Origin: Octopus sinensis
Lineage: Eukaryota
Direction: 5' to 3'
Assembly (NCBI RefSeq): GCF_006345805.1
Contig: NW_021832274.1
Span: forward strand, 9,908 to 73,907
DNA: 64,000 nt
The translations under genes and the position numbers were made by a program. This document shows positions 35,653 to 41,307 of the stretch, piece after piece (positions within the stretch are counted from its first letter, which is position 1; each line of letters opens with the position of its first letter). The notes beneath the pieces are model-generated. The model was not told the origin of the DNA. It saw nothing but the letters and a program-made list of their open reading frames with translations, and ran no database searches.

Positions 35653-35866
35653 GCAACAAGGATATACAGAGGTATGCAGTACGTTAGTTTCATGCAACTC
35701 CATTTAATTTAAATGCATTGCTCAATTAAATGGAGTTGCATGAAACTGCATTGCCTCTGAATATCCTTGTTGCATATTTTGATTTTAATCACCTTACTTT
35801 GAAATTGTATGGATAATACCGTACTAAATTCTGGTGCCTCAACTTAAGTACCATATTCATCTGAAT
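35653..35866. mobile_element. Fold-back element in (TA)n, probable inverted Penelope-like pseudo-LTR remnant
   Basis: Arms 35653-35709 and 35724-35773; minus strand reads GAAAC-TAAC-GTA (hammerhead 3' half). Confidence 0.65.
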
Positions 35867-38744
35867 CTCTCTCTCTCTCTCTCCTCCTCTCTCTCTCCTC
35901 TCTCTCTCTCTCTATATATATATATATATATATATAATATATATATACTACTTTCCTACCATATGTGACTTGATGGACATTCGACCAGCCACATTTGTAA
36001 TTACAAAACATAAAATATATTGTTCTTGAGTTTTAGTCTTTGCTGTATGTTTAAGAGGCTTATTTTGCAATAACGTGGTTTCGAGTTTAGTGACACTGTG
36101 CATTGCCAGGAACAAATATTCTTTACTATAGTCCCAACTGGCTCCCTTCGAATTTATGCAATTTCATTACTCTATATAGCTTGTAGTGAATGGGCTTCGG
36201 TGAAATGTGAAACCCGAAGCAAATTAGTCCAGTGTTTCTTATAATGAGATAGGGGATGGTGTTGATGATTGCAAAGGGATCGGACAACCGGCCATATTTA
36301 ATATATTTAAAATGCTTTTAAATTTTTAAAGGGATCAAAAGTTATGGTGCAGAAAAAATGATTATATGGAGGCGAATTCTATTCTGTTTCCTCATAAATA
36401 AAAACCAAAGAAACGTTATCCACCAGAAAGAAAATAATACCCACCCTCCAAAAAAAAATATCAAAACAAATTAAAACAAAAGACTATTTTTGGTCTGGGA
36501 CTGGCTATTGTCAATTTAGGAACCACTGAAATTAGTTTAAGACATTTGTTCCAGTATCTACATATAACCATTTGATAAAAAGATTTAACTTCCTCTAACT
36601 AGATTTGACCGAAATACATCTATACTGTTGTTTTGCATCTATTTTTTAATTCTGATCTTAATTTCGTATGAGTGATAGGTTGGTCTTTTATTTTTAGATA
36701 AACCAACTCTGTACAATGTAAACAAGAGACAAATATATCGTTAATATAATTTCATGACAATAATTTGTTGTTGTATCGAATATTTGACAGCGCACTTATT
36801 TGATTACTCCAACGAATATAGCGGAGCAGATTCGTAGTCGGAGTATCTGAAACGTTCCGAAATAGTATGAACGTTGCTTATATGAGATTAAACATGCCGA
36901 GCATAATTTACGCGGGAAAATTAAATAAAGAAATGAAATATAAACAAAACAAAATTCCTGATTTGTTGAATACCTTTTAAATCATTATATTGTAATTTGC
37001 GGAACTTTTAGTCAGCAGAAATAAATTAGATTAATGGGTAAGCCTTTAGAATCGTCCAATAGCATATGTGTATATATATACATACCTACATACACACATG
37101 CATACATACATATATGTATATATAAACGTCCAATAGCATATGTATATATATGTGTATGTATGTATGAATGTATGTATGTATGTATGTATGTATGTATGTA
37201 TGTATGTATGTATGTATGTATATATGTATGTATAGACAGATACATATATATAGTTACATATATATATACATATATATATATACAATCATACATACATATA
37301 CATGTGTGTGTGCTATTGCATGTCTATATATATATATATATACACACACAAGCGCGCACGCATAAATACAAAAATATACTCATCCATACTTATACCCATG
37401 TGTGTGTGCATGCACTTAGATATGAACGCATATGTATATCGGCTTCCGTTTGTGCCAAGAATCTGATTGATGTGCTATTCTGTTAGAGCGGGAGTATGCT
37501 TTACTAACAAGGACGATGATGATGATGATGACGATGATGATGATGATGATGATGATGATGACGTTTGTGTACCTTTTTAATTGCTGTGTCTAAAACCAAT
37601 TAGGCGGCTTTATAAACAGATTACAATAAAATTCTTACTGGACTGAAAATAGGTTTTCCGGTTGATACGATTGACTAAGCATTTGAAGATTTTTGCCCCA
37701 GAATGGTCGTACTGCAATGACTGATGCCTCAAAATAAAATAAATAAATAAATAAATAAATAAATAGATACATAAATGAAAAAGGAACTCGCGTGGCTGAT
37801 GTAATTCCTGATGATAAACACGAGACATCTCCTACACACCGAAGTTTCTCTTATGAGCGAGAACATTGAGGTGCTTTACAATAAGGTATTGACTGGTTTG
37901 AAACAGCATACTAGATTTGCAATGACTAGACAACAAAATGTTTGTTATGAGGTCGTAGACCTGTCTTAGTTTTACTCTGAAGTTGAGTTCATACAGCTTG
38001 TGACATGATCAATATGATCCACTTTTTTTCTAAGCATTGCAAAGCAAAATGTAACACAGCTACGTTGAAATGCACGATCTATATACTTACTTTCGTGTCG
38101 ATTTCCGCTCTATATATGTGATGTAGCTTGTAACTAAATAGAAAACGTGAGAACTTAGCAAATCAATTTCCTTTAAGAACATAAGCAGTTTCTCTTTGAG
38201 ATTATCTTCCACAACGTAAGTCAATTGGTACGTGAAACATATTAGGAAGATCTGTAATGCCGACATATATAAATACAGGTATAAGCCTGCTCCTGTAGTC
38301 ACAGTTTTATGAAAGTGCATGGCAAAGGTACAATGATTTCAGTTTTTACTTGCCAGTTCAGGTGTCGCGAATGCATAAATACTATCTCTTCCTCCCACAC
38401 ACGCGCACGCGCGCTCATATTTATATATGTGTGTGTGTGAGTGTGTCTGTTTGTGTATGCCCGACTATATATATATATATATATATATATATAGAGAGAG
38501 AGAGAGAGAGAGAGAGAGAAGAGAGAGAGAGATAGAGATAGATAGATAGATAGATAGATAGATAGATGATAGATAGATAGATAGATAGATAGTAGATAGA
38601 TAGATAGATAGATAAATAGATAGGTAGATAGATAGATAGATAGATAGATAGATAGATAGATAGATAGATAGATAGATAGATAGATAGATAGATAGATAGA
38701 TAGATAGATAGATAGGTTTAAGAGAAGAAACCAACGACAAGCAA

Positions 38745-38906
38745 CTCAATCAACATTGAACGACATTATCTGCCAGAAATATATAAGATTAAAAAATTAT
38801 CTACTTAATACCTACAATTACTATTCTGAATCAAATACATTATATGTATATGATATTTAATCTTATATATCTCTCTCATAGATAATGTCATTCAATGTTG
38901 ATTGAG
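38745..38906. repeat. Imperfect ~50-bp inverted repeat between (GATA)n and (TA)n tracts
   Basis: CTCAATCAACATTGAA..ATATATAAGATTAAA (38745-38793) pairs with 38856-38906. Confidence 0.75.
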
Positions 38907-39519
38907 ACGCTAATAGTGGAAAATTCGTATTAGTACCACTAAATTGAATTTCTCTCCCCTGTGGACTCGGAAATAAATTCCCTAATATTAATATTATATA
39001 TATATATATATATATATATATATATATATATATGTATGTGTGTGTGTGTGTGTGTGTGTGTTTCTGTGTGTGTTTCTCTGTGTGTGTGTGTGTGTGTGTG
39101 TGTGCTTACGTGGGCATATGCGTATGTATGTATGTATCTATGCATGTATATGTGCAGATTTGTATGTTTTGCTTCATATATGTATTCTCATGCATATAGT
39201 TGCATATCTAGATATGCTAATATATATTTAAATGATAAACTTATGGAAAGTTTTACAAATTTTTACAGTTCCAGGCATGGATTGGATCTGTAGTTTTCGA
39301 ATTAGCTTTCTACTTTCTGGTTTTGAGAAGTCTAATTCCTCACGATTGTTATTTAAGCAGTATGTATATGTGCATGCATTTATATATGTATATATATGTA
39401 TGTATGTATGTATGTATACATACAGTTACCATGTAGGCACTTTAAATAGTTTCATTTTTTTTATAATTAAGATTTAAGCGGTTAATATATGAATACAAAA
39501 GAGATAGTTGAATGACTGT

Positions 39520-39542
39520 AAACCTACTTTTGGGCCACCCTG
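39520..39542. mobile_element. Solo Tc1/mariner-like terminal inverted repeat
   Basis: ACCTACTTTTGGGCCACCCTG followed by TA; reverse complement CAGGGTGGCCCAAAAGTAGGT has the usual Tc1/mariner end shape. Confidence 0.55.
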
Positions 39543-39566
39543 TATATATATATATATATATATATA

Positions 39567-39880
39567 TAAAACATTATTGGTGAATTGAAGAAATGGAGCT
39601 GAACGCAGATTGAACAGAAATCGTTTTATTTCATTCTACACGTGTTTCGAAACACGTGTAGAATGAAATAAAACGATTTCTGTTCAATCTGCGTTCAGCT
39701 CCATTTCTTCAATTCACCAATAATGTTTTAATTTCAATTATCCGCACCAACGCACGGTTGCAACGCCAGATGGTTGTACCTCCAACCGTGCTGTTTACTG
39801 CTGTGATTTTTGCTACTAAGGTATCGGTTAAACTTTTGATTAATCTACTACAAGATTATTCATCTTTCTATTTCACATAA
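39567..39880 (+). mobile_element. Perfect 164-bp palindrome plus ~150-bp tail in (TA)n; probable Penelope-like remnant
   Basis: 39567-39730 is an exact palindrome centred on TTTC|GAAA; right arm begins GAAAC-ACGT-GTA then AATAAA. Confidence 0.75.
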
Positions 39881-40655
39881 TATATATATATATAATTATA
39901 TATATATATATATATATTATATTATATATATATATATATATATATATATATATATATATATAATATTATATATATATATACATATATATATAATGACATT
40001 TTTACATAGAATTTTGTCAAATTTTCTTTTTCCTCCGTTATTCTTTTTAATGGGTCATTCTTATCTTAAACTGTTTTCATTTACTTTTTCACATAAATGC
40101 AAACATTAATATAAATATATTTGTATGTCTATGTTTATATATGGACACACGCATTATATACATACACAAAAAGATATATCTAATACTATATAAGATAGTT
40201 TTGATTCCTTGATATCATCTTCCTTTCCAAAGGTCAAATAACAAAGGGAGATAATATCAAGAATTAAAAAAAAATACATGCCTCTACGGAAAAGGTTTTC
40301 TAATTAACTGGAGATAAAATGCAGCTTATGAAAGCAAATTTCTATGACTCTATGCGTCGTCAGCGCAGTAGTTCGAAGACAAGTTTTAAAGTACGTTCTT
40401 CTAAAGGAAGCTGGATTCTTATTCAATCTAACAGGGGCATCTTACTTAAAAAAAGATAAGAGAAACGAAATGTGTTGCCTCTTACAAGATATTCTGAACA
40501 GTGGTGTAATACAAATATATATACATACATAAATACGCACAGACATATGTACACACACATATACATACATATATATATTTATACATACATACATATATGT
40601 GAATATATATATATATATATATATATATATATATATATATATATATATATATATT

Positions 40656-40880
40656 GTTGAATAGTAAAGAGAAGGTTCTTGCTACAGTGTTATAAATATT
40701 TGAAAGAATGAATAGAGATGCGTTTTTGAGGGGATTTTAAAAATTTTAATCTTAATAATGTTTACAGTGAGTTGAAGCGTGAAACTCATATCAGAGTAAC
40801 TCACTGTAAACATTATTATTAAGATTAAAATAAAAAAATTAAACCCTCAAAAAAGGCATCTCTACTCATTCTTTCAAATA
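40656..40880. mobile_element. Fold-back element with hammerhead 3' half in its loop
   Basis: Arms 40697-40773 and 40798-40880; loop contains GAAACTC-ATATCA-GAGTA. Confidence 0.7.
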
Positions 40881-40993
40881 CATACATACATTCATACATA
40901 CATACATACATACATACATACGTACATACATACATACATACATACATATATATATATATATATATATATATATATATATATATATATATATAT

Positions 40994-41307
40994 ATATGAA
41001 TAAGTGAAAGAATGGAGTCGAACGAAGATGTTAACAAAATTCCTTTACTCTCGACATATGCTCCTTTGGAATGAAAACATGTTGTCTTCGAAACATATGT
41101 CGAGAGTAAAGGAATTTTGTTAACATCTTCGTTCGACTCCATTCTTTCATTTATTCATATACAACACACAAATTTCTGCACATGAAGCCGGAGTTTCTAC
41201 CCTTGGACAGGTCGCTTCAACCGTGTTTCTGACGTGAATTTGCTTCCCAGGTTTCGGTTAAACGAATTGTCCATGCTGACGATAAACATAGATAATTCAT
41301 TCACCTA
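40994..41307 (+). mobile_element. Fold-back element plus ~150-bp tail in (TA)n; probable Penelope-like remnant
   Basis: Arms 40994-41060 and 41094-41160; CGAAAC-ATAT-GTC at the loop/arm junction; tail similar to 39770-39865. Confidence 0.75.

What the first reader, a model, noticed from the sequence alone, without database searches (positions are those of the whole stretch)
35653..41307. Cluster of microsatellite-embedded fold-back elements turning around at a hammerhead 3' half
Seen: five long hairpins within 6 kb (35653, 38745, 39567, 40697, 40994), each next to (TA)n, (CATA)n or (GATA)n, with largely different arm sequences. Four carry GAAAC-Nn-GTH at or near the apex (GAAAC-TAAC-GTA, GAAAC-ACGT-GTA, GAAACTC-ATATCA-GAGTA, GAAAC-ATAT-GTC) and none retains CTGANGA. 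Established: Penelope-like elements often integrate with an inverted partial LTR and carry minimal hammerheads with palindromic stem III. Inference: several PLE-related families target TA repeats and strand-switch preferentially within the ribozyme, leaving compact 200-320 bp hairpin elements that may form a distinct non-autonomous class.
Basis: partly seen in the sequence, partly recalled or inferred. Interest (0 to 1): 0.75.

Follow-up and report, generated by a model that had tools for sequence, protein, structure and literature searches.

The report
Head-to-head Penelope (Hydra-type) insertion stubs
The five hairpins are real but are ordinary short, head-to-head insertions of Penelope-type jumping genes whose turning points are only weakly tied to the ribozyme; the junctions of related copies suggest that each arm is likely a separate reverse-transcript of capped RNA, started from one end of the cut DNA.

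Summary
All five hairpins exist and four carry GAAAC-N-GTH without CTGANGA. Each is the pLTR end of a different Penelope-like (PLE) family. Longer copies restore a type I hammerhead (H4: a doubtful U3-A8 variant). H2, H3 and H5 link to RT/GIY-YIG ORFs with Hydra-clade motifs; no ORF was found for H1 or H4. Compact hairpins turn there by geometry. Identical fold-backs arose independently, so there is no hairpin element class. What goes further: either arm can be the longer, and many pairs do not overlap. One arm starts at about +65, the other at about +215. H3 arms often stop at an Inr+DPE site with an extra G (72 of 100). This fits two cDNAs primed from both DNA ends on capped sense RNA, not the published self-priming model. 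Earlier scan notes reported the stubs and two-ended priming on other DNA; I found no note on the cap-G site.

The parts
35649..35717 (-). H1 short arm (pLTR -40..+32), with GAAAC-TAAC-GTA at 35680-35691
35714..35866 (+). H1 tailed arm (about -41..+121); stem III/GTA deleted
38714..38851 (-). H2 short arm (about +4..+145 of a hammerhead-bearing family; the ribozyme itself is lost)
38838..38993 (+). H2 tailed arm with internal deletion, ending in (TA)n
39567..39652 (-). H3 short arm (-16..+69)
39645..39652 (.). H3 junction on the TTTCGAAA palindrome (stem II 3' end plus GAAA); 27 exact copies of this junction in the genome
39645..39879 (+). H3 tailed arm (-16..+218), with GAAAC-ACGT-GTA at 39649-39660
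39752..39791 (+). H3 tail stem-loop (predicted); tailed arms of the family often begin just 3' of it, at +128..+136
40653..40773 (-). H4 tailed arm (-1..about +130; tail about 45 nt)
40773..40880 (+). H4 short arm (-26..+85), with GAAAC-TCATATCAGA-GTA at 40781-40798; family core is a TTGAAAA (U3-A8-like) variant
40997..41060 (-). H5 short arm (-8..+60), inserted in the (CATA)n(TA)n flank of H4
41062..41309 (+). H5 tailed arm (-40..+210), with GAAAC-ATAT-GTC at 41090-41101

Best explanation
The five hairpins are short head-to-head insertions of the terminal repeat (pLTR) of five Penelope-like retrotransposon families, and each likely formed when both ends of a cut (TA)n repeat primed reverse transcription of the element's RNA at two fixed internal sites and the two short cDNAs were joined by microhomology. 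Shown: family membership; hammerheads in longer copies; RT plus C-terminal GIY-YIG ORFs with Hydra-clade motifs for H3 and H5, and a GIY-YIG end for H2; fixed outer ends, one short (+58..69 in H3, about +60 in H5) and one tailed (+218, +210); scattered inner ends; an H3 hot spot at -168 with an extra G. Inferred: the outer ends are the two RT start sites; -168 is a capped Pol II start (Inr at +1, DPE-like AGTTC at +28..32), so the template would be capped sense RNA; cDNAs likely stop early at the cap, at tail structures and, mildly, at the folded ribozyme or its TTCGAA palindrome. A compact hairpin has its apex near GAAAC mainly because GAAAC-GTH lies only 60-85 nt from the short start site.
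For: Tandem 3.63-kb units laid out (TA)n - inverted part - pLTR - ORF - pLTR. ORFs; 370 homologs, best named hit from Argonauta. Hydra diagnostics as listed in PMC8557442: DKT and RW(K/L), CxxC-E..N-CxH with no CxxC inside GIY-YIG, CxCX5C linker in H2, (TA)n targets. Full cores: H1 21 of 30 loci, H2 9 of 30, H3 and H5. Arms behave independently. H3, 99 inversions: antisense arm longer by >20 nt in 39, sense arm longer in 24, symmetric within 3 nt in 13, no overlap in 21. H5: 35/14/3/7 of 59 and 26/12/0/16 of 41. One end of each kind: short-anchored H3 has 47 tailed partners, 1 short and 18 undetermined of 66; H5 has 37 tailed of 41. The -168 site: 19 of 138 insertions end within -172..-162. 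124 matches genome-wide have a non-parent base before it; the first 100 listed show 72 G, 26 A, 2 T (my count), against G at 15 of 76 other junctions (Fisher p=3e-12). All 30 loci inspected are true junctions: 14 tailed arms, 13 short, 3 unclear, with three insertions ending there on both arms. An extra G marks cap copying in L1 (PMC11702581). Two internal RT starts bounding the tail, both strands cut and extended, and a predicted dimer are reported in vitro (PMC11167929). Geometry: among compact hairpins, 8 of 14 (H3) and 7 of 10 (H5) keep GAAAC-GTH, and 1 and 0 keep CTGANGA.
Against: No RNA 5'-end data: only assembled contigs were available. Many of the G's are also templated by the partner arm, so microhomology selection contributes. 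H5 shows no clear equivalent start site. The H3 linker Zn-finger is degenerate, Pfam gave no hit on 5 of 5 ORF pieces, PDB gave none, and no tree was built. No ORF link for H1 (at least 1.2 kb of AT-rich upstream DNA without a recognisable ORF) or H4. 13 of 99 H3 junctions are symmetric, several on palindromes, as self-priming predicts. The ribozyme window is mildly enriched. H5 mapping is blurred by diverged subfamilies. The samples are the first-listed places on contigs C1-C6, not random draws.
Confidence: 0.75

Rival explanations
1. One reading: reverse transcription switches strand preferentially inside the hammerhead 3' half, because of ribozyme cleavage or folding.
For: All five window junctions lie between about -41 and +45. 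Enrichment in -20..+3 is 1.46-fold (H3) and 2.03-fold (H5) per locus, pooled p=0.007. There are 27 exact TTTCGAAA fold-backs. Two truncated copies begin at the predicted cleavage site (L129, L187).
Against: Window-scan p=0.11. The -168 site is about three times denser per nt. No peak at position 0. 5 of 52 compact other-family hairpins have an apex GAAAC without CTGANGA, against 4.5% by chance. Fold-backs also occur on other palindromes, at -162, -172, -422, -426 and -708. Ribozyme mutants did not change PAc insertion in vitro (PMC11167929).
Confidence: 0.1
2. Self-priming (Arkhipova 2013, PMC3846280): a single cDNA or antisense template folds back at a palindrome and copies itself.
For: Symmetric junctions on palindromes: 13 of 99 H3 and 3 of 59 H5 inversions, including H3 itself. 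Recurrent variants are shared by both arms in 9 of 11 cases.
Against: Either arm can be hundreds of nt longer than the other, and 21 of 99 (H3) and 16 of 41 (H5) pairs do not overlap. The extra G at a promoter-like site on both arm types points to capped sense RNA. Shared variants are also expected if both cDNAs come from one source element.
Confidence: 0.08
3. The compact hairpins are a self-propagating non-autonomous class (or MITEs) copied as units.
For: The same junction occurs at 27 loci. No ORF link was found for H1 or H4, so those parent families may be non-coding.
Against: The six other exact fold-backs inspected differ in outer end and carry different subfamily variants, mirrored on both arms where the arms overlap. 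Ends are asymmetric because of the tail. 27 junctions against 1128 exact tail matches. Junctions form a continuum.
Confidence: 0.03
4. Compact, spacer-free forms are secondary: longer inverted insertions lost their middle by hairpin-driven deletion, or were collapsed in assembly.
For: H1, H2 and H4 are old and carry internal deletions. All five units here are compact, against 14 of 99 and 10 of 59 in the family samples.
Against: The -168+G and tail hot spots recur at single-base precision, which deletion would not give. The young H3 family already holds many compact forms.
Confidence: 0.04

Closest known systems
Hydra clade of C-terminal EN+ Penelope-like elements (Craig et al. 2021, PMC8557442; passages read)
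   Same: DKT and RW motifs, CxxC and CxH around the conserved E and N, no CCHH, canonical hammerhead in the pLTR, (TA)n targeting, partial tandems with an inverted 5'-truncated copy and a one-sided tail.
   Different: Units are 3.63 kb (paper: generally under 3 kb). Tails are about 45-150 nt (paper: 30-40 bp). The H3 linker Zn-finger is degenerate. Stem II is long (about 50-90 nt) in H1, H2, H3 and H5. Copy numbers run to thousands.
PAc/Poseidon of Anolis in vitro (Frangieh et al. 2024, PMC11167929; parts 1-2 of 4 read)
   Same: Two internal RT start sites bound the tail; AT-rich targets; both strands cut and extended.
   Different: In the parts read, the paper does not pair the two starts with the two arms of one inverted insertion and does not map a capped 5' stop.
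Adineta vaga Penelope elements and the self-priming model (Arkhipova et al. 2013, PMC3846280; passages read)
   Same: Head-to-head pLTRs, optional tail, palindromes at some junctions, Inr-like element in the pLTR.
   Different: Most junctions here are asymmetric or non-overlapping, and the G signature points to a sense capped template.
L1 twin priming and cap-derived extra G (PMC11702581; passages read)
   Same: Both DNA ends prime; cDNAs are joined by microhomology; extra G at complete 5' ends.
   Different: In L1 the second primer lands next to the first cDNA's end and the arms barely overlap. Here both starts are fixed 3' sites, so the arms usually overlap and form hairpins.
PLE minimal hammerheads (Cervera and de la Pena 2014, PMC4209133; parts 1-2 of 4 read) and non-LTR retrozymes (bioRxiv 10.64898/2026.07.22.740005; part 1 of 5)
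   Same: Type I fold with palindromic stem III; hammerhead pairs on opposite strands 100-700 bp apart; a U3-A8 core variant as in H4.
   Different: Retrozymes are tandem units with complete ribozymes; the window units are inverted and have none complete.

Membership tests
EN+ Penelope-like elements | Single ORF with RT and GIY-YIG endonuclease between pLTRs | tested here: met
   H3 and H5; GIY-YIG end for H2. Assembly copies are frameshifted; Pfam silent.
EN+ Penelope-like elements | ORF linkage for the H1 and H4 families | tested here: inconclusive
   No collinear ORF in 50 H1 and 30 H4 loci.
EN+ Penelope-like elements | Partial tandems, inverted 5'-truncated copy, one-sided tail | tested here: met
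   tails in all five window units.
EN+ Penelope-like elements | Type I hammerhead in the pLTR | tested here: met
   H1, H2, H3 and H5 longer copies. H4: 0 of 30 with CTGANGA, 9 of 30 with TTGANAA, weak fold.
EN+ Penelope-like elements | Target-site duplication | not testable with these tools
   Insertions sit inside (TA)n.
Hydra clade | DKG changed to DKT; RWK motif | tested here: met
   SDKT and IRWL in H5 and H3 (read).
Hydra clade | No CCHH; CxxC and CxH around the conserved E and N | tested here: met
   Invariant C293, C296, E299, N312, C321, H323; a single C between VY and YIG.
Hydra clade | CxCX5C linker | tested here: inconclusive
   Present in H2 and homologs; degenerate in H3.
Hydra clade | Groups with Hydra RTs in a tree | not tested
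   No labelled reference sequences on hand.
MITE | Fixed symmetric ends, fixed length, unit copying | tested here: not met
   Asymmetric ends and a continuum of junctions.
Non-LTR retrozyme | Tandem units each with a complete hammerhead | tested here: not met
   Window units are inverted and lack CTGANGA.
Active hammerhead ribozyme | Self-cleavage | not testable with these tools
   No peak of arm ends at the cleavage site.

The most novel reading that the evidence does not exclude
Hydra-type Penelope elements integrate by ordered two-ended priming: one end of the DNA break starts at the inner RNA site and the other at the outer site, each used once. Both copy capped sense RNA from an Inr/DPE promoter in the pLTR, sometimes the same 5'-proximal segment twice, which would mean two RNAs on a dimeric RT or re-use of one RNA. 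Solo pLTR hairpins would then be by-products of priming at the 5' pLTR, and their junctions would map the promoter and the protein-bound tail structures in vivo.
Probability: 0.55. Interest if true: 0.6.

Novelty: new member of a known kind. Interest (0 to 1): 0.36.

Why it matters
The hairpins themselves are a described insertion form. But how PLEs make inverted pLTRs and tails is stated to be unresolved (PMC8557442, PMC11167929). These young, high-copy families give hundreds of natural junctions that separate the published antisense self-priming model from two-ended priming on capped RNA, and they name exact nucleotides to test (-168, +68, +130, +218 in H3). In practice such hairpins can be misannotated as MITEs or miRNA precursors.

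Tried and rejected
Rfam scan: no hammerhead among the rows shown, only chance miRNA-type hits. Pfam and PDB searches of ORF pieces were empty; homologs gave only a weak GIY-YIG hit. My first clade guess, Nematis (recalled, and written in the notebook), was dropped after reading the Hydra diagnostics. RNA: no RNA holder is listed on record, and the four contig sets laid cannot show 5' ends; not used as evidence. ORF hunts for H1 and H4 failed; three nearby RT fragments (L424, L057, L062) are not collinear with the families and were set aside. One search used a faulty H5 reference and is void; it was redone. Scripts crashed part-way; only the lines printed before the crash are used. The window line is unusable; one search is used. 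First-pass junction calls included false matches to TA-rich sequence and were refiltered. H5 ends near -338 (reference gap) and near -133 and -113 (diverged subfamilies) were not read as hot spots. No H5 start site with a G signature was found. A scrambled-order hammerhead for H4 (lead from earlier notes) was not tested. Literature searches for twin priming or a cap signature in PLEs found no such paper; most subscription papers are outside the library and I read no supplements.
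Full report
Observation. The window is TA-microsatellite-rich animal DNA from a 2.72-Gb genome. I call it octopus-like only because the best named RT homolog is from Argonauta and earlier notes say so. The five hairpins, their microsatellite flanks and the four GAAAC-N-GTH motifs are as described, and no complete hammerhead core lies in the region.

Families. Genome searches gave copies of every arm. Exact tail patterns occur 1128 times for H3 and 333 times for H5. 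Longer copies restore a type I hammerhead: stem I - CTGA(A/T)GA - long stem II - GAAAC - 4-nt palindrome - GTH - stem I. This holds for H1 (21 of 30 loci), H2 (9 of 30), H3 and H5. H4 copies never show CTGANGA (0 of 30), but 9 of 30 fit TTGANAA..GAAAC..GTH, like the U3-A8 variant in PMC4209133; its predicted fold is weak, so activity is doubtful. H3 occurs as 3.63-kb tandem units preceded by an inverted partial copy in (TA)n. H3 and H5 encode RT plus a C-terminal GIY-YIG domain, and one H2 copy runs out of a GIY-YIG end. The motifs match the Hydra clade diagnostics in PMC8557442; no tree was built. No ORF was found for H1 or H4.

Junction mapping. Coordinates are relative to the predicted cleavage site (0). 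I mapped 83 tail-anchored and 66 short-arm-anchored H3 places, taken from the first 100 rows listed. De-duplicated by junction coordinates they give 138 insertions: 99 inverted, 23 running off the fetched DNA, 16 other. For H5 I mapped 93 tail-anchored places and 54 short-anchored places, from the first 100 rows. The outer ends are fixed: +58..69 and +218 in H3, about +60 and +210 in H5. In short-anchored samples the partner is tailed in 47 of 66 H3 places (1 short, 18 undetermined) and in 37 of 41 H5 inversions. The inner ends are scattered over more than 1.5 kb.

Does the element turn at the ribozyme? Only mildly. Ends in -20..+3 are enriched 1.46-fold (H3, p=0.12), 2.03-fold (H5, p=0.013) and 1.71-fold pooled (p=0.007) per locus; a scan over all windows gives p=0.11, and the second H5 sample gives 1.66-fold, p=0.11. 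There is no peak at position 0, although two truncated copies begin there. Part of the excess is the TT(T)CGAA(A) palindrome: 27 exact H3 fold-backs, but fold-backs also sit on other palindromes. Geometry does the rest: among compact hairpins, 8 of 14 and 7 of 10 keep GAAAC-GTH, and 1 and 0 keep CTGANGA.

A separate class? No. The six other exact H3 fold-backs I inspected, of 27, differ in outer end and subfamily variants, so the same junction formed repeatedly. H1 and H4 parents may be non-coding, which would be an ordinary non-autonomous PLE family and not a hairpin class.

Mechanism. If one arm were a fold-back copy of the other, it would always be nested in it. Instead the antisense arm is longer by more than 20 nt in 39 of 99 H3 inversions and the sense arm in 24; 21 do not overlap; only 13 are symmetric. 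H5 agrees. Junctions often show 1-5 nt of microhomology or short insertions. The strongest H3 stop is -168: 19 of 138 insertions end within -172..-162. A pattern requiring a non-parent base there matched 124 times; the first 100 rows show 72 G, 26 A and 2 T, against G at 15 of 76 other junctions. All 30 loci inspected are true junctions on both arm types, and three insertions end there on both arms. The site reads as an initiator with AGTTC at +28..32; the Inr and DPE consensus are recalled, not from a call. An extra G reflects cap copying in L1 (PMC11702581). Many of the G's are also templated by the partner arm, and H5 showed no such site. Tailed arms also start preferentially at +128..136 in H3 (12 of 66; 3' of a predicted stem-loop) and at +161..165 in H5 (8 of 41; 3' edge of the motif shared with H3). 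Together with the two internal RT starts, two-strand cleavage and predicted dimer of PAc (PMC11167929), the simplest model is two cDNAs primed from the two DNA ends on capped sense RNA and joined head to head. The antisense self-priming model (PMC3846280) can cover at most the symmetric minority.

What is known. Inverted pLTRs, tails, TA bias and hammerheads are all described; Penelope families are annotated in Octopus vulgaris (PMC13282606, passages). Four searches found no paper on twin priming or a cap signature in PLEs, within the limits of the library; I read no supplements. Earlier notes of this scan describe the same stubs and two-ended priming on other DNA. I had stated that reading before the first look-up, and those notes are not independent support.

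Verdict. Real feature and a known kind of insertion. The value lies in the junction statistics on an open mechanism. Interest 0.36.

Noticed in passing
window 19337-19811: 475-bp inverted repeat with about 70-nt arms around a microsatellite-filled spacer; no full hammerhead motif.
   Followed up: no
window 44592-44624 (+): Hammerhead-like CTGATGA..GAAAC motif about 50 nt after a long (TA)n; possibly a sixth, uninverted PLE stub.
   Followed up: partly
window 32115-32155 (-): CTGATGA..GAAAC..GTA motif in what looks like the 3' end of another repeat; may be chance.
   Followed up: partly
window 28192-28946, 29944-30660, 53721-54626: Local tandem duplications with periods 348, 183 and 428 bp, two with microsatellites in the unit.
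   Followed up: no
window 35304-35570: tRNA/SINE-like segment between two (TA)n arrays just before H1 (label recalled, not tested).
   Followed up: no
H1 family upstream, L412/L415/L417: At least 1.2 kb of shared AT-rich sequence with an internal repeat and no recognisable ORF: candidate non-coding PLE family.
   Followed up: partly
H3 and H5 tails (window 39809-39833, 41239-41263): Shared 25-nt motif in otherwise diverged tails: candidate protein-binding site (D19).
   Followed up: partly
L151 ORF (6038-7039) and L158: Long Asn/Ser-rich inserts between RT and EN, as reported for Adineta Penelope.
   Followed up: no
L151:7552-7583: Clustered A>G differences in one contig of run X1; could be RNA editing or a variant copy, not resolvable from contigs.
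   Followed up: no
flanks of fetched loci: 116 hairpins of other families in 1.10 Mb, most next to TA repeats and 16 with full hammerhead cores: many more PLE families in this genome.
   Followed up: partly
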